Source of the DNA: Ginglymostoma cirratum
Lineage: Eukaryota
NCBI GenBank assembly: GCA_024137785.1
Contig: JAHRHZ010000058.1
Coordinates: 15,360,883-15,424,882 of the forward strand
Direction: 5' to 3'
Length of the DNA stretch: 64,000 nucleotides
Part shown: positions 6,001 to 12,000 of the stretch, one piece after another
How positions within the stretch are numbered: the stretch's first letter is position 1
How the letters are laid out: each line of letters begins with the position of its first letter
Program-made: the position numbers

Positions 6001-9000
6001 AATATAACAAAATGTGCAATGCACTGTTTTATGATTGGAAAACATAAATTATAACATTATTGTTCTTGCTCAAGTTTGTCATCAAAAGATAATTTTAAAA
6101 GTTGCATTTATGTTAAAAAATATATGAAGGGACTAAAATCATTTCAGGGAAAAACACTCTGATGTGGACAATCAACTGCAGCACATAATCAGGATGGAGA
6201 ATTAGTGTAAAATATGCAACTGTGATATGGCACATGATATCAAATGTGTAAAAATGGAATGCAATGGGGTAACATGAAATTAGACTGGAAACGAGGACAT
6301 GAAATTAAATTTTTAGCAGCTCAGCATGTCCTATTTTTACACATTTGATATCATGTGACACAATTGTATTTTTGTGATCAGTAATTCTGAATAAAATAAT
6401 TTAAAAGGTTTTAAAGCTTAGATGTTGTTCATGGCACACATACAATAATTGCTATTAAATGCTGGTATATTTTAGTATTGTTTCAAAGCCAATAAATGAA
6501 TGAAATTTGTGTTCCATATACCAAATTGTTGATTTGCTAAAAAGGTGCATTATTTTCAATTTACTTAATTTCAAACAAATTATAGTGAAAATGAAGTGAT
6601 AATTATGCTCAAGAACCATTTTTGACTTTACATAATCTAGCTTGTTTTTAATGAGATCAAATTCTAAATAAAATGAACATTTCTCACATTGACTATTACA
6701 ACAAGAAGTTGTTACAGGTACTTAAGACGGACATCTATTTTACAAAATCCATTTCAGGATTTCCTTTGTCAGTATTTATTCTTCAGGGCAACTTTTTGAT
6801 TTACATGCCAACTCATTGATTCTCAAAGTTTAATGAAGCAGGGCTAAAGAATTTGAAATTCACATTGCTACTTCTTGCCTTCTTGTCTTTCTTCAAGATA
6901 TTTCAAAGATTTTTCTGCCAGTTTCCCATCACAGACAGATGGTTTTTGGGAAGTCTCATTTTGAGCAGGTAGGACCATTGTGGTGCTTCCCAACAGGGCA
7001 CTAGTGGAGTGAGCCAAGGAAGTAAACTGTTGCCTCAGGCTAGGGTGCTGAAAGGTCATTGTGCTCCACAGAGCAAATTCACTGGAAACAAAGGGATGAG
7101 AGCCAGACAAAGTTGGTCTGAAAAGGGTTGGCACAGGGTAATGACTGGGTTGTGTAATTGTATGAGTGACATTGGGCAAACTTGCTACAACACTGTGGCT
7201 GTTTGGGGATACCTGGAAGGCATCAGACGGAGATCTAAAGGCAGAACTCAGAGACCAAGCTGATGAGGTTAAAGGACAGTGACCAGAGTTGTAGTCAGCT
7301 ATGTCCTTGGAGGTCTGTGGTTTGTTGTAATTCTTCGATCCTTCAGATCGCCTGGTGGTGCTGGACAGTAAGGTTTCAATTGCTGAAACCAAATCATTGT
7401 TGCAACCTTTCAGCACCAGCTCCAGGACGGACTGTTTCTGATTCGGAAATACCTTGGCTAGAACCTCAATAGGAGGCGTTTTAGACTTTCCTGAAGGAAC
7501 CATGTCCTTCAGCACGTCTTCCGACTTCAAGAACTTCGTGATGTCATTGAAGTTATATCTGGTGGCGACTTTAACGTGTTCTTTGTTTTCCTTCTTCCGC
7601 TGTATGTCATTGTTTGATTCTGGGAGGGGCAATGATAAATCGCTGTTTTGGGTATCTGTGGATGAAACTGGCTCTTCCACCTCACTTTCTGTAATCTTCT
7701 TCTGGTTGTTATCAGCATCTTTTCCTTCGACATCTTCATATTCATCTGACAATAAATAGGTGTAATGATTAATTACAATGTGATGAATGAATGTTTTACG
7801 CTATTGTGCATTGTAACATACAGGAATCTACCTTTCTCTGAACGTAAAGCCAAACTAACTTTAACTTGGGTACTAGACCACTCAAAAATTTACGTTCACA
7901 GCCCTCATATTCCCTCAGAGCAGACAGAGTGTAGATATACGGCGAGGTAGGTGCGCCCTTAAATTCGTGCTTCAAAGCTCCAGTTCCACCAGTGCGACGC
8001 TGTGCTGTACACATTAATTGTGAATAACGAAGCAGCTTTACAAGATACTTGCGGAGCTATTTTTACTGCCCAATGTAATATGTAAGTTTCCAATGTATGC
8101 TGTATCGCGATTTTTCTCTCGTACTAATTGCACATAACACACTAATCGCCATGGCAGCAGAATTTTACACTGTACAACCACGTTATTCAGTCTTTGACAC
8201 GTGTAGCAGCTCTGAAACGGTTTGTGTCATTGCAACATAATATTGCTGTGTATAAAACCTGGGATTCCGTAGATATTTTCATAGCGTTATCAGGTTGTCC
8301 TTTTTTTTAAAGGTTTGCGCATTTGAAATTCTAAGTCTGTTGATTTTATTACAAAGTTTTACAGTTCAGTGCATAATTCCTCTATATGCCCCCATCCTCA
8401 AAATTTAACTATTGCATTTTCTCTGCGTTCAAATACAACTGATGTCTATCCGCCAATCTACCAAAAAATATTATTTTCTTGACTTAAGAACATCATCTAG
8501 AGATGTTTACCAACACATTTAATGTTTATACAAGAAAACAGAATATCTAGACTCGAATCTTTTCCAACGTACACCCGTGAAAGCAGGTTGACCGGCAGTT
8601 TTTGAAGTTTGAATGTAAGATTATATTTGCGACATAGATAAAAGTTGATAATTGAAAAATGTATGATGGTGTTTAGTTAAGGAAAAATGACGCTGCTGAC
8701 AAGTGTTTTAATCAAAAACAAGGTTTTGTTGCCGGTCTAAGGACACTAAAAACTTTTACTTTGCGTTTTCCTTTAAAGACATTGCCTAACTGCAAATCCT
8801 GGCGAAAGACCTACCCAGGAAGCTCAGAAGCTAGCAGAGATTATCCGGCAATTTATTTGAAGTTTTGGAATGAAATAACTTTTATGTTTACATGACTTAG
8901 TTTCGTCAGTTATTTTTCCATTGTTACCCAGAGATGCTGGTTAGGATTTACTTTTCATTTGTTTCAAAGTTTAATATTGTGAATTATGAAATGACGACAT

Positions 9001-12000
9001 TTAAATATACATGGAATTGACCGGAACAATGAGTGAAAATATAAATAAATCGCTAGCGCACGCTAAAACGGGTTACCTATTTTACCTTCCGTTATCCTCA
9101 TTCTCAGGACTTCACTCGTCAACCTTTGAGAACTACGTTAAAATGATCCCTAATAAAAACCTTAACTATTAAATCATAATACAAAAACTCTCCAACAACT
9201 CCGAAACGTAACACATTCATTTTCTGAATGTGGAGTTAAAATGGTAAATACAGAAATGTTAGGCTGTCGTAGGAACTAATGGCAAAATGTCAATCGGGAT
9301 CAATTTCTTATATTTTTCAGATATGTAAATGTCACGTTAAACACAAGTGTCCCTGAAGTAGTCACGAATGACTTAATTGGAATAATACAAGCCTATAAAT
9401 GTGCGGGTTATTTTTATATTTCTTTTTGAAATAGCTCGAAATTATCCCAGCAGCAGGTCTCTCTTTGTTTCACTTGTAACCAGGCAATTTGATCCCTTAA
9501 TCCCTGTGCTCTGCAGTGATTAATCACGTCCCTGGGGCTGAAACGGTAAACGCGGGGCATCCAAACAGATCAATCCCCCTTTTCACCCCTGCGCAATTAT
9601 CATAACTAGAGTGTTATAGCTTTGAACTAGCCGGCTCTTTGATTTGTTGAACGTGGAAAAACAAGCAGGAAGCCAATTTGTAGTAAGAATAATCAGTTTT
9701 CAGAGAAAAGGGGATAACAAGAATGGCTTGCTTTAACAATGATGGTTCAGTTAAAATAGCATCCAGATTGTTGCAGTCACTGCGTATTGTGCTGCTCTTT
9801 CTCCTTGTTCCTTAAACCAAAGTCTGTTCCTACCGCTTGTTTGACATAGGTTATTCATGCTCGCGGCGTCAAGAAATCCTTTTCAACTATTTTGTGACAA
9901 CTAACGTTCATTGATTGAACACCGTTATTCTCATCGTCAGATCACCTTATATGGGAGATGAAGGTGAAGAGGCATAACGGGATGCTACTAAATTCTAAAT
10001 TTAATTGGTTACACATAAAAAATGATGCATTTGGCAGCAAGCAAATATTTAGAAAACGTTTGTTAAACATGCCAGCATTTCGGTATGCGCCGTTCCCGCG
10101 GTTTGGTTTAAATTCTCAATAGCTAAATAGCCATTTTCCGACATTCGCGCTCTCAGGAGGAGCCGGACACTATGGGCATGGAAAAATCTGTTTGATGTTT
10201 GGTGTAAATGTATCCCACCCAATGTTCCTGTCGAATGGATCGGCTGTAGATTTTGAGAAATCCTTATCCCTACCGGGAAGCAAAGTCATCCCATTTCATA
10301 GTCTCCCACCATTCCTGGAATAGTTCCAAATCGTACGGTAACAGAAAGCAGTAACTTCCCAACCGTTGAAATAGCTGCAGCAAACTGGGAACATCGAATA
10401 TAGTTAACGTCCCGTTTTTGGAATAGATACAACAAACTGGAGGCATGAATGTCAGTTATGTGAAGTACTGCCTTTAATAAATCACCTTGTCCACACTGCA
10501 TTTCACAGTATTTCTCATTGAGTGTGAGATCTCTGTGACCCGATAATATCCCCATCAATGTTTAGCTGTGTTTGAAAAAATACTTAAATGAGACAACGTT
10601 TCAGCTATTTTGCCAAGAAATGCAACAAGAAAACACCTGTTTAAATTCAGAGGACTACAAATGTTGTGAAGCGGCGCTGCATTTCACGTGAGGTGTTAAA
10701 GTAAAAATAAACCTGACGTCTAATATCGAGTGACTGCGACAATACAATATTCCTGCACTGCCTTATTACAGTCGAGGGAATATCTATGCGTGTCTTATAA
10801 TTTCACGCTGCTCATGTACACAGAGCGAAGAAAACCCTTGAAACATTTCTGGCCTGTGTGAATTTCCTACCCAGTTGCTGATGTAGTATGGAATCCGCAG
10901 GTGTCGTTTCGTCAAGTCTGTTTCTGCTTCTGCCGGCTGAGTACACGCTATCGGAAGGGGCCGAGTCCTCGAATCTCTCGGGGGCTGGATACATTGCTCT
11001 GTAATCCTCAGATAAAACCAGATTGCAAGGATTCTCGTTGCTTTGTTGCCTCCTGAGAGCCACCTGCGCGGCCATGACTCTCTGTCTTTCTAAGATGAGG
11101 ATGCACTTGTCGCAAGTGCAGTCTTTGAAGCGACAGTAGCGTTTATGGCCTTTGAGCCAGGACAACACCCCGTGATTCCGACACCGTGCGCACTTGGGAG
11201 TTCTCTGAGCTGGTGCTCGGGAAGACGCGGTCGGTACGTACAGATATGGAGCACCATAGCTGTTCATGGTAATCACTTTAAAGTTGTGTTTTTACAACCA
11301 AAGGTTCGATTCTCCCTCAATTCCTTTCTCAAAGATGAAAATCGCACGGGAGCAAACGCAAATCTGAATTCACAAGCAGGAGCACATATCCCAGCTGCAG
11401 CGCCTCGGTTCTATAAGCAGTTATTTCAAGTCAATCAAGTGAAACGACTTGTATGAAAGGATCGAAAATCATTTTTCCCCCGCAAACCTCTCCCCCTTCA
11501 TTCTTTGAGAAGAGTTGAAAGCAACTCCACAATCAAACAATTCTAAAAGATTTCAAGTGGTTGGAGGAGGTGATATAGGTGCCGAGATAGGGCGGGGCGC
11601 ACTCCATTCAAAAGGGATTAAAAACAAACGAGGAAGCTGGAAGCGAGGTAATAGAGCTAATGGATCACTTCATTGAGATACCCTTTCACAATTAGACTTT
11701 CCAATTCTTATAAAATGGATGTACCCCACTTCCAAAATATATTATGTGAATTGTCAATTTTCACTTCATTTTTAATTAAACTAAGAATTGATGATAATGG
11801 TATGGGAAATCGATTTCCATTTTGCACTAAATTGAATCAGTTTTGCGCAAGTTTTGTAAATCTGGATTTTGAGTTTAAAATGTGATGGGGAAGAAGGAGC
11901 TAGTTATCTCATTTTGAGATGGAACTGAGGGCTAATCAATGCATTGGTTAAACTTGGACACGTACATGTTCTTCGGTTATCTGCCACGATACTTCACCTT

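What the first reader, a model, noticed from the sequence alone, without database searches (positions are those of the whole stretch)
6868..11267. The dmrt3-like protein keeps DM/DMA domains but is strongly remodelled elsewhere
Seen in sequence: an uninterrupted 424-codon spliced ORF with good Kozak and splice sites. The DM domain is nearly identical to DMRT3 and the DMA domain is recognisable. The linker and C-terminus are only loosely similar, and the protein ends KSLKYLEERQEGKK rather than the acidic/Ser tail I recall for DMRT3 (..YDERSDSSDSR..). Established knowledge: DMRT3 specifies spinal dI6 interneurons that control locomotor gait, and also acts in forebrain and testis. Inference: a functional old paralog under purifying selection on DNA binding, with diverged effector regions. 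It may be sub- or neo-functionalised (locomotor circuits or gonad).
Basis: partly seen in the sequence, partly recalled or inferred. Interest (0 to 1): 0.68.

Follow-up and report, generated by a model that had tools for sequence, protein, structure and literature searches.

The report
Intact dmrt3-type gene beside dmrt6-like gene
The window holds an intact two-exon gene for a DMRT3-type transcription factor lying just downstream of a second, DMRT1/6-type gene, an arrangement suggesting an old extra copy of dmrt3 rather than the standard one, though this could not be proven here.

Summary
The gene model is real. On the minus strand, exon 1 (11267..10871) and exon 2 (7745..6868) give 1275 nt, which is 424 codons plus a stop, with sound start, donor and acceptor sites. 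Exon 1 carries a full DM domain (Pfam 88 bits) with all eight zinc ligands. Exon 2 carries a DMA domain (57.5 bits).

No DMRT3 reference sequence was reachable, so "nearly identical to DMRT3" and the tail comparison stay untested.

The new evidence is the neighbour. About 15 kb upstream on the same strand lies a second DM gene, "X" (57652..~26573). My four-exon, 315-codon model of X has no Pfam Dmrt1 domain. Its DM domain is no closer to human DMRT1 than the dmrt3-like one is, and it has an odd H-x2-C zinc spacing. Published dmrt1 has five exons and dmrt6 has four. Coelacanth DMRT6 has a 957-nt CDS.

Gar has two duplicated clusters, dmrt1-dmrt3-dmrt2a and dmrt6-dmrt2b.

My best reading (about 0.5) is a dmrt3 ohnolog kept beside dmrt6. 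The main rival (about 0.3) is a divergent canonical dmrt1-dmrt3 pair.

The joined protein was never searched.

The parts
10871..11267 (-). dmrt3-like coding exon 1 (397 nt, 132 codons plus 1 base): short N-terminus, DM zinc module and recognition helix, and the start of the acidic/Ser-rich linker
   Evidence: The ATG context and the donor G|GTAGGA were read. Pfam DM scores 88.1 bits. PDB 4yj0 (DMRT1) matches at E 9.9e-25 and 1lpv (DSX) at E 9.1e-18. The canonical ligand pattern is present.
7746..10870 (-). single intron of the dmrt3-like gene (3125 nt, phase 1)
   Evidence: GT at 10870-10869 and AG at 7747-7746. Without splicing, the exon 1 frame runs into a stop about 20 codons later.
6868..7745 (-). 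dmrt3-like coding exon 2 (878 nt including the TAG stop): acidic linker, DMA domain, Ser/Thr/Pro-rich C-terminal half, and a basic/acidic tail
   Evidence: The sequence was read. Pfam DMA scores 57.5 bits with no DMRT5_DMB hit at E<=0.1. The composition is 20 D/E in the 90 residues before DMA and 60 S/T/P in the 167 residues after it. The best Atlas cluster is a chordate DMA cluster at 0.94, a weak lead.
6775..6780 (-). AATAAA, a candidate polyadenylation signal 88 nt after the stop
   Evidence: Read. Its use is not shown.
57199..57652 (-). neighbour gene X, exon 1: a DM domain with a one-residue shorter H-to-C spacing
   Evidence: Pfam DM scores 71 bits. PDB 4yj0 matches at E 1.2e-24 with a gap between the His and Cys ligands. 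The donor TAG|GTAAGA is phase 1. The H-x2-C pattern is shown.
54735..55006 (-). neighbour gene X, candidate exon 2 (272 nt; Tyr/Pro/Ser-rich)
   Evidence: A phase-1 acceptor and a phase-0 donor TTG|GTAAGA match the flanking exons. There is no Pfam hit.
42798..42945 (-). neighbour gene X, candidate exon 3 (148 nt; Pro/Tyr-rich)
   Evidence: It has a phase-0 acceptor and a phase-1 donor CAG|GTAAGA. There is no Pfam hit.
26573..26646 (-). neighbour gene X, candidate terminal exon (74 nt including TGA; acidic, Ser/Gln-rich end)
   Evidence: It has a strong pyrimidine tract and a CAG acceptor in phase 1. It was chosen by eye from 76 phase-1 candidates and is tentative.

Best explanation
Shown: the region encodes an intact two-exon gene for a DM-plus-DMA transcription factor of DMRT3 type.

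Inferred from the family: the protein binds the pseudo-palindromic DMRT DNA site through the intertwined zinc module and a recognition helix. In the stretch aligned to human DMRT1, that helix is unchanged. It can pair with other DMRT proteins on DNA. Its DMA domain binds ubiquitin and so controls the protein's stability. The acidic linker and the Ser/Thr/Pro-rich C-terminal half are flexible effector regions that evolve fast.

Inferred from the neighbourhood: the gene lies about 15 kb downstream of, and on the same strand as, a DMRT1/6-type gene that fits dmrt6 (dmrtb1) better than dmrt1. The pair is therefore most likely the second vertebrate DMRT cluster (dmrt6-...-dmrt2b) made by the early whole-genome duplications. 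In that case this gene is the dmrt3 ohnolog of that cluster, a copy missing from the bony vertebrates described so far, and not the canonical dmrt3 that sits between dmrt1 and dmrt2a.

Its site of action (spinal cord, forebrain or gonad) is unknown.
For: Gene integrity:
- 424 codons, a first in-frame ATG after a stop, and GT/AG sites in matching phase.
- The longest open frame in the window is 310 codons, against a maximum of 209 in 100 shuffles.

Domains:
- DM scores 88.1 bits and DMA 57.5 bits, with no DMB domain.
- All eight zinc ligands have canonical spacing.
- The helix stretch from ERQRVMAAQ to LRRQQ is identical to human DMRT1 in the 4yj0 alignment.
- The two-exon structure matches dmrt3/dmrt4 in the species tabulated by Dong 2020 (passages).

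Mechanism, from passages of the review PMC9361473:
- The DM domain binds a 13-bp pseudo-palindrome.
- DMRT proteins form heterodimers on DNA.
- The DMA domains of worm DMD-4 and human DMRT3 bind ubiquitin.

Neighbour X:
- It is the only other DM exon in the window (5 exon queries; only the reciprocal DM hits at E about 3e-20, all other hits at E>=0.055).
- My model has four exons with matching phases, 454+272+148+74 = 948 nt.
- Coelacanth DMRT6 has four exons and a 957-nt CDS. DMRT1 has five exons (Table 1 rows). dmrt1 has five exons in all but one species examined, and dmrt6 has four in higher vertebrates.
- There is no Pfam Dmrt1 domain in the exon-1 frame or in the exon 2 and 3 frames (0 of 3 at E<=0.1 or 1). 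Dmrt1 proteins carry that domain.
- X's DM core is 33 of 47 identical to human DMRT1, no more than the dmrt3-like gene's 35 of 47.

Framework:
- Gar has two duplicated clusters, dmrt1-dmrt3-dmrt2a and dmrt6-dmrt2b. DMRT1 and DMRT6 are sister groups.

From memory only, not tested: two recognition-helix substitutions and the Ser/Gln/Glu-rich C-terminal end of X resemble mammalian DMRTB1.
Against: - No phylogeny and no comparison with any DMRT3, DMRT6 or non-human DMRT1 sequence was possible.
- The model of X is ab initio. Its last exon was picked by eye from 76 candidates, and a 10-N assembly gap lies in its intron 2, where a fifth exon could hide.
- Searching the Pfam Dmrt1 domain exon by exon could miss a domain that is split by an intron.
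- A DM gene upstream on the same strand is also exactly what the canonical dmrt1-dmrt3 cluster looks like.
- The window shows no flanking marker gene (kank1/smarca2 versus kank4/lrp8/glis1) and no dmrt2-type exon.
- Mawaribuchi 2019 reports the canonical cluster in elephant shark and a pseudogenised dmrt6 in little skate. In the passages I saw it mentions no second dmrt3. Its Table S1 could not be read.
- The window's species was not established by any tool.
- Expression and selective constraint are untested.
Confidence: 0.5

Rival explanations
1. This is the lineage's ordinary, canonical dmrt3 in the kank1-dmrt1-dmrt3-dmrt2a cluster. The upstream gene X is a divergent dmrt1, and the divergence outside DM and DMA is just the family's normal fast evolution.
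For: - The tandem same-strand order of a DM gene followed by a DM+DMA gene equals DMRT1 followed by DMRT3, a cluster conserved in all vertebrates examined, including elephant shark.
- X aligns to human DMRT1 over 67 residues, including the stretch after the DM core.
- The reviews I read say there is little conservation outside DM and DMA.
- An exon of X could lie in the assembly gap.
Against: - X has no Pfam Dmrt1 domain in the three frames tested.
- X models as four exons and 948 nt, like dmrt6, not five.
- X is no closer to human DMRT1 than the dmrt3-like gene is, 33 against 35 of 47.
- X lacks one residue between two zinc ligands. That would be odd for a gene as conserved as dmrt1.
Confidence: 0.3
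2. The pair is a younger, lineage-specific duplicate of the dmrt1-dmrt3 cluster, from a segmental or lineage-specific genome duplication. The dmrt1-dmrt3l-dmrt2l cluster of bonytongues and eels is an example. Both copies would have diverged quickly.
For: Such duplicate clusters exist, and their dmrt3l copy keeps DM and DMA (passages of PMC11043485). Eel has doubled dmrt1 and dmrt3. Both genes here look divergent.
Against: - In those fishes the partner gene is a true dmrt1 with the Dmrt1 domain. X has none.
- The two DM cores in the window share only 30 of 47 columns, as expected for different subfamilies. This says nothing about the age of the copy.
- The window's taxon is unknown. From memory only, the repeat fragments look like shark LINEs rather than teleost ones.
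Confidence: 0.12
3. The gene is a recently inactivated or unexpressed relic whose open frame has not yet decayed.
For: There are no expression data. The neighbour X has a non-canonical zinc-ligand spacing, and dmrt6 is reported as pseudogenised in a skate. Both hint that this cluster may be decaying in some lineages.
Against: - The 424 codons are open and the splice sites are intact.
- All zinc ligands are present, and DMA matches strongly.
- A 310-codon frame far exceeds the shuffles.
Confidence: 0.08

Closest known systems
Vertebrate DMRT3 (canonical; between DMRT1 and DMRT2)
   Same: Both have a DM domain in exon 1, a DMA domain in exon 2 and two coding exons. Neither has a DMB domain. Both have a DM-domain gene upstream on the same strand.
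   Different: The upstream neighbour here fits dmrt6 rather than dmrt1. The CDS is 1275 nt, against 1455 nt predicted for coelacanth DMRT3. Sequence-level differences could not be measured.
dmrt3l (dmrt3a-like) of bonytongues and eels, in the duplicate cluster dmrt1-dmrt3l-dmrt2l
   Same: It is a second DM+DMA dmrt3-type gene kept within a duplicated DMRT cluster.
   Different: That duplicate is ascribed to the teleost-specific genome duplication, and it sits beside a true dmrt1 with the Dmrt1 domain. Here the partner gene lacks that domain.
The dmrt6-dmrt2b cluster of gar and coelacanth
   Same: A four-exon DMRT1/6-type gene heads a second DMRT cluster.
   Different: No dmrt3-type gene is described in that cluster. 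Dong 2020 even models that paralogon without dmrt3. Whether dmrt2b follows here is outside the window.
DMRTA1/DMRTA2 (DMRT4/5), Dmrt93B and C. elegans DMD-4
   Same: All belong to the DMA subfamily, and the DMA domain binds ubiquitin.
   Different: No DMRT5_DMB domain was found here, while the DMRTA2-named Atlas clusters carry it in 30-75% of members. Membership in Dmrt93B was not testable.

Membership tests
DM-domain transcription factors (Pfam PF00751) | DM domain above the curated cut-off | tested here: met
   88.1 bits against a cut-off of 27, with full profile coverage 1-47. PDB DMRT1 matches at E 9.9e-25.
DM-domain transcription factors (Pfam PF00751) | Eight zinc ligands in the spacing C-x2-C-x2-H-x8-H-x3-C-x4-C-x-C-x2-C | tested here: met
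   The pattern was found in exon 1. The pattern itself is from my own knowledge, consistent with the aligned 4yj0 and 1lpv chains.
DMA subfamily (DMRT3/4/5, Dmrt93B/99B, DMD-4) | DMA motif (PF03474) C-terminal to the DM domain | tested here: met
   57.5 bits against a cut-off of 23, profile positions 3-36 of 37.
DMRT3 type (as opposed to DMRT4/5) | Two coding exons, with DM in the first and DMA in the second | tested here: met
   Exon numbers for dmrt3 come from Dong 2020.
DMRT3 type (as opposed to DMRT4/5) | No DMB domain (PF20624) | tested here: met
   No hit at E<=0.1 in exon 2.
DMRT3 type (as opposed to DMRT4/5) | Groups with DMRT3 in a gene tree | not testable with these tools
   No DMRT3, DMRT4/5 or Dmrt93B sequences were obtainable.
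Canonical dmrt3 orthologue (kank1-dmrt1-dmrt3-dmrt2a) | The upstream neighbour is dmrt1 carrying the Pfam Dmrt1 domain | tested here: not met
   0 of 3 X exon frames hit PF12374. They were searched exon by exon, so a domain split by an intron could be missed.
Canonical dmrt3 orthologue (kank1-dmrt1-dmrt3-dmrt2a) | The upstream neighbour has the five-exon dmrt1 structure | tested here: inconclusive
   My model has four exons with matching phases, but it is ab initio and a 10-N gap lies in intron 2.
Canonical dmrt3 orthologue (kank1-dmrt1-dmrt3-dmrt2a) | dmrt2a and smarca2 lie downstream, and kank1 lies upstream of the cluster | not testable with these tools
   Only 6.8 kb lies downstream, with no DM exon there. 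No recognisable host-gene frames lie at either end.
DMRT6/DMRTB1 (for the neighbour X) | Four exons and a CDS near 950 nt | tested here: met
   948 nt in four modelled exons, against 957 nt and four exons in coelacanth. This rests on my model only.
DMRT6/DMRTB1 (for the neighbour X) | Neighbours are lrp8, kank4, glis1 or dmrt2b, and X groups with DMRT6 in a tree | not testable with these tools
   These lie outside the window, and no reference sequences were available.

The most novel reading that the evidence does not exclude
The window shows two of the three genes of a complete second DMRT cluster, dmrt6-dmrt3b-(dmrt2b). In it, a dmrt3 ohnolog from the early vertebrate genome duplications survives intact in this (probably cartilaginous-fish) lineage, although it is absent from the bony-vertebrate clusters described so far. 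That would mean both duplicated clusters originally carried dmrt3, contrary to the published model. It would also give this lineage a fourth DMA-class DMRT factor, free to take over part of dmrt3's neural or gonadal roles.
Probability: 0.45. Interest if true: 0.5.

Novelty: new member of a known kind. Interest (0 to 1): 0.4.

Why it matters
DMRT3 controls locomotor-circuit interneurons and takes part in forebrain patterning. The DMRT clusters are also a textbook trace of the two early vertebrate genome duplications.

A dmrt3 copy retained beside dmrt6 would fill the empty slot in the second cluster. It would correct the model in which only one paralogon had dmrt3. It would also offer a natural experiment on how a DM+DMA factor diverges once its DNA-binding and ubiquitin-binding parts are fixed.

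If it turns out to be the ordinary dmrt3, the finding is routine annotation.

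Tried and rejected
- **Structure of exon 2.** The single-sequence AlphaFold2 model had a mean pLDDT of 43.4 and pTM of 0.17. It showed three helices over the DMA region but was too poor for a fold search, so none was run.
- **Atlas look-alikes.**
  - Exon 2 best matched a chordate DMA cluster at 0.94, but the query's recognition value (2186) was below the 2300 mark.
  - X exon 1 gave generic DM clusters, 20 of 30 hits in arthropod-dominated DM-only sets. 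One chordate cluster at 0.90 had the Dmrt1 domain in 12% of members.
  - Neither result separates dmrt1 from dmrt6.
- **PDB search with exon 2.** It returned only chance-level hits, at E 0.1 and 0.89.
- **Pfam on 20 further frames.**
  - Nothing reached a curated cut-off. The only weak hits were Exo_endo_phos_2 (E 0.02), Sialidase (E 0.056), DUF1656 (E 0.042), Colipase-like (E 0.12) and NYAP_C (E 0.3).
  - My naming of the repeat fragments therefore rests on recall.
- **RNA families and tandem repeats.** Rfam gave 0 matches at gathering scores. Tandem Repeats Finder gave 0 arrays.
- **Literature.**
  - Seven searches found no description of a second dmrt3 in a cartilaginous fish.
  - (dmrt3b, dmrt3-like, dmrt3l, dmrt3 paralog, dmrt3 ohnolog) listed 9 papers. 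By title, five concern invertebrates, two I read concern teleosts, and the two I did not open concern donkey and mule DMRT3 alleles and mouse myogenesis.
  - One search was badly framed: none of its 40 listed papers holds dmrt3.
  - Three shark or chimaera genome papers mention Dmrt only in passing.
  - Supplements are closed, notably Table S1 of Mawaribuchi 2019, which lists the chondrichthyan DMRT genes.
- **Rejected: an acidic/Ser tail hidden in another frame or in a further exon.** The other two frames near the stop close at once, and no such frame lies in 1..6867.
- **Not used.** Whether relatives of this gene exist elsewhere therefore stayed unchecked.

Full report
**What is there**

On the minus strand an ATG at 11267 (context ACCATGA) follows an in-frame TAA nine codons upstream. 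The frame runs to 10871, where a donor G|GTAGGA follows. After 3125 nt, a pyrimidine-rich tract ending in CAG precedes exon 2, which starts at 7745 and ends with TAG at 6870-6868. The intron is phase 1 and the split codon reads GAT.

The exons are 397 and 878 nt, which is 1275 nt or 424 codons plus stop. Exon 2 lies in a 310-codon open frame, the longest in the window (28 frames of 110 codons or more; the next longest is 204). In 100 mononucleotide shuffles the longest frame reached at most 209 codons, with a mean of 147. An AATAAA lies 88 nt after the stop.

The joined protein was never built, searched or folded. I do not take the window for human.

**Domains**

- Exon 1 matches Pfam DM over the whole profile, at 88.1 bits against a cut-off of 27. 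Exon 2 matches Pfam DMA at 57.5 bits against a cut-off of 23. No DMRT5_DMB hit appears.
- The eight zinc ligands have canonical spacing.
- Against solved structures, exon 1 matches human DMRT1 (4yj0, E 9.9e-25) and fly DSX (1lpv, E 9.1e-18). By hand count, 43 of 61 aligned residues and 35 of 47 DM-core residues equal DMRT1, including the whole recognition-helix stretch.
- Exon 2 has no meaningful PDB relative.
- The 90 residues before DMA hold 20 Asp/Glu. The 167 residues after it hold 60 Ser/Thr/Pro.
- A single-sequence AlphaFold2 model of exon 2 was poor (mean pLDDT 43.4). It showed three helices over DMA, and I took it no further.

**What could not be checked**

They need a DMRT3 sequence, and no tool supplied one. 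The tail KSLKYLEERQEGKK itself is in the sequence.

**The neighbour**

The window holds exactly one other DM exon. In one search, five exon-wise queries against the window gave only the reciprocal DM matches at about 3e-20, and every other hit had E of 0.055 or more. It lies on the same strand at 57652..57199, and I call the gene X. Its Pfam DM score is 71 bits.

It aligns to human DMRT1 over 67 residues with 46 identities, 33 of 47 in the core (hand count). It needs a one-residue gap between a His and a Cys ligand. The pattern is H-x2-C instead of H-x3-C.

Chaining the best splice sites gives four exons with matching phases:
- 57652..57199
- 55006..54735
- 42945..42798
- 26646..26573

Together they are 948 nt, or 315 codons. 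The last exon has a strong acceptor, but I picked it by eye from 76 phase-1 candidates. A 10-N gap at 43768-43777 lies in intron 2, so a further exon cannot be excluded.

None of the three X frames tested hits the Pfam Dmrt1 domain. The two DM cores in the window share 30 of 47 columns.

**What the literature says**

For every paper below I read passages found by term search, not whole texts or supplements.

- *Mawaribuchi 2019 (PMC6737965).* Spotted gar has two clusters that trace the two early genome duplications, dmrt1-dmrt3-dmrt2a and dmrt6-dmrt2b. The DMRT1-DMRT3-DMRT2 cluster is conserved in all six vertebrates examined, including elephant shark. The dmrt6-dmrt2b cluster was seen only in gar and coelacanth, and dmrt6 is pseudogenised in little skate.
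- *Forconi 2013 (PMC3636272).* The coelacanth table gives DMRT1 five exons, DMRT6 four exons with a 957-nt CDS, and a predicted 1455-nt CDS for DMRT3.
- *Dong 2020 (PMC7689362).* dmrt1 has five exons in all species examined but one, dmrt3 has two, and dmrt6 has four in higher vertebrates. DMRT1 is sister to DMRT6. Their model gives dmrt3 to only one of the two ancestral paralogons.
- *Arowana study (PMC11043485).* Bonytongues and eels keep a second cluster, dmrt1-dmrt3l-dmrt2l, from the teleost duplication. Dmrt1 carries the extra Dmrt1 domain.
- *Review PMC9361473.* The DM domain binds a 13-bp pseudo-palindrome, and DMRT proteins heterodimerise on DNA. There is little homology outside DM except DMA. 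The DMA domains of worm DMD-4 and human DMRT3 bind ubiquitin. Dmrt3 specifies dI6 interneurons.

**Interpretation**

The core is solid: an intact DM+DMA, two-exon, DMRT3-type transcription-factor gene. How it works is inferred from the family. It binds DNA through the zinc module and an unchanged recognition helix, may pair with other DMRT proteins, and its stability is controlled through ubiquitin binding at the DMA domain. Flexible, fast-evolving regions fill the rest.

Which dmrt3 it is depends on X. Four properties of X fit published dmrt6 better than dmrt1:
- the modelled exon number and CDS length;
- the lack of the Dmrt1 domain;
- a DM domain no closer to human DMRT1 than that of the dmrt3-like gene;
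- the odd zinc-ligand spacing.

From memory only, two helix substitutions and the Ser/Gln/Glu-rich end of X also recall mammalian DMRTB1. I did not test this.

If X is dmrt6, the pair belongs to the second cluster, and the gene is a dmrt3 ohnolog not described in bony vertebrates. I put this at about 0.5.

The rivals are:
- the canonical dmrt1-dmrt3 pair in a divergent form (about 0.3);
- a younger lineage-specific duplicate cluster (about 0.12);
- a silent relic (about 0.08).

**Limits**

- The species is not established. Several reverse-transcriptase-like fragments remind me of shark LINEs, but Pfam did not confirm any repeat family.
- No flanking marker gene is visible at either end of the window.
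- Seven literature searches found no report of a second dmrt3 in cartilaginous fishes. One search was badly framed. Supplementary tables that list chondrichthyan DMRT genes could not be opened.
- Automated genome annotations may already name this gene 'dmrt3-like'. I could not check that.

**Verdict**

The 'old paralog' idea is plausible and gains support from synteny, but it is unproven. 'Strongly remodelled' is not remarkable for this family. Interest is moderate: a gene-family detail that becomes worthwhile if the complete second cluster is confirmed.

Noticed in passing
window 57652..26573 (-), exons at 57652-57199, 55006-54735, 42945-42798, 26646-26573: A second DM-domain gene (X) of DMRT1/6 type lies upstream on the same strand. 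My ab initio model has four exons and 315 codons. No Pfam Dmrt1 domain was found.
   Followed up: partly
window about 57520-57500 (-), inside the DM domain of X: X lacks one residue between the second His and the following Cys zinc ligand, giving H-x2-C instead of H-x3-C. This is an unusual DM domain. Either the zinc site tolerates it or the gene is compromised, and dmrt6 is reported as a pseudogene in a skate.
   Followed up: partly
window 43768-43777: A run of 10 N (assembly gap or masked stretch) lies inside the modelled intron 2 of X. An exon could be hidden there. It was left untouched.
   Followed up: no
window 7733 (-): A second in-frame AG acceptor lies 12 nt inside exon 2. Using it would drop four codons, so it is a possible minor splice variant.
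   Followed up: no
window 4638-5508 (-), 18007-18363 (+), 33462-33866 (+), 52449-52890 (-): Four related open-frame fragments look to me, from memory, like the C-terminal part of a LINE reverse transcriptase common in shark genomes. Pfam gave no hit for the two I submitted.
   Followed up: partly
window 19897-22395 (+): A string of plus-strand frames looks like a decayed LINE. Frame 20587-20919 has a weak endonuclease/reverse-transcriptase Pfam hit (E 0.02, below the cut-off). The region has strong positive GC skew of 0.24-0.33.
   Followed up: partly
window 47485-49238 (-), 58550-59738 (-), 62546-62986 (+): By eye and from memory only, these frames resemble an LTR-retrotransposon pol/protease, a Penelope-like or LINE element, and a Harbinger-type transposase. 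Pfam found nothing for the six frames submitted from the first two stretches. The Harbinger-like frame was not submitted.
   Followed up: partly
window 1..64000: There are no Rfam family matches at gathering scores and no tandem-repeat arrays of score 80 or more. No host gene other than the two DMRT genes is recognisable.
   Followed up: yes
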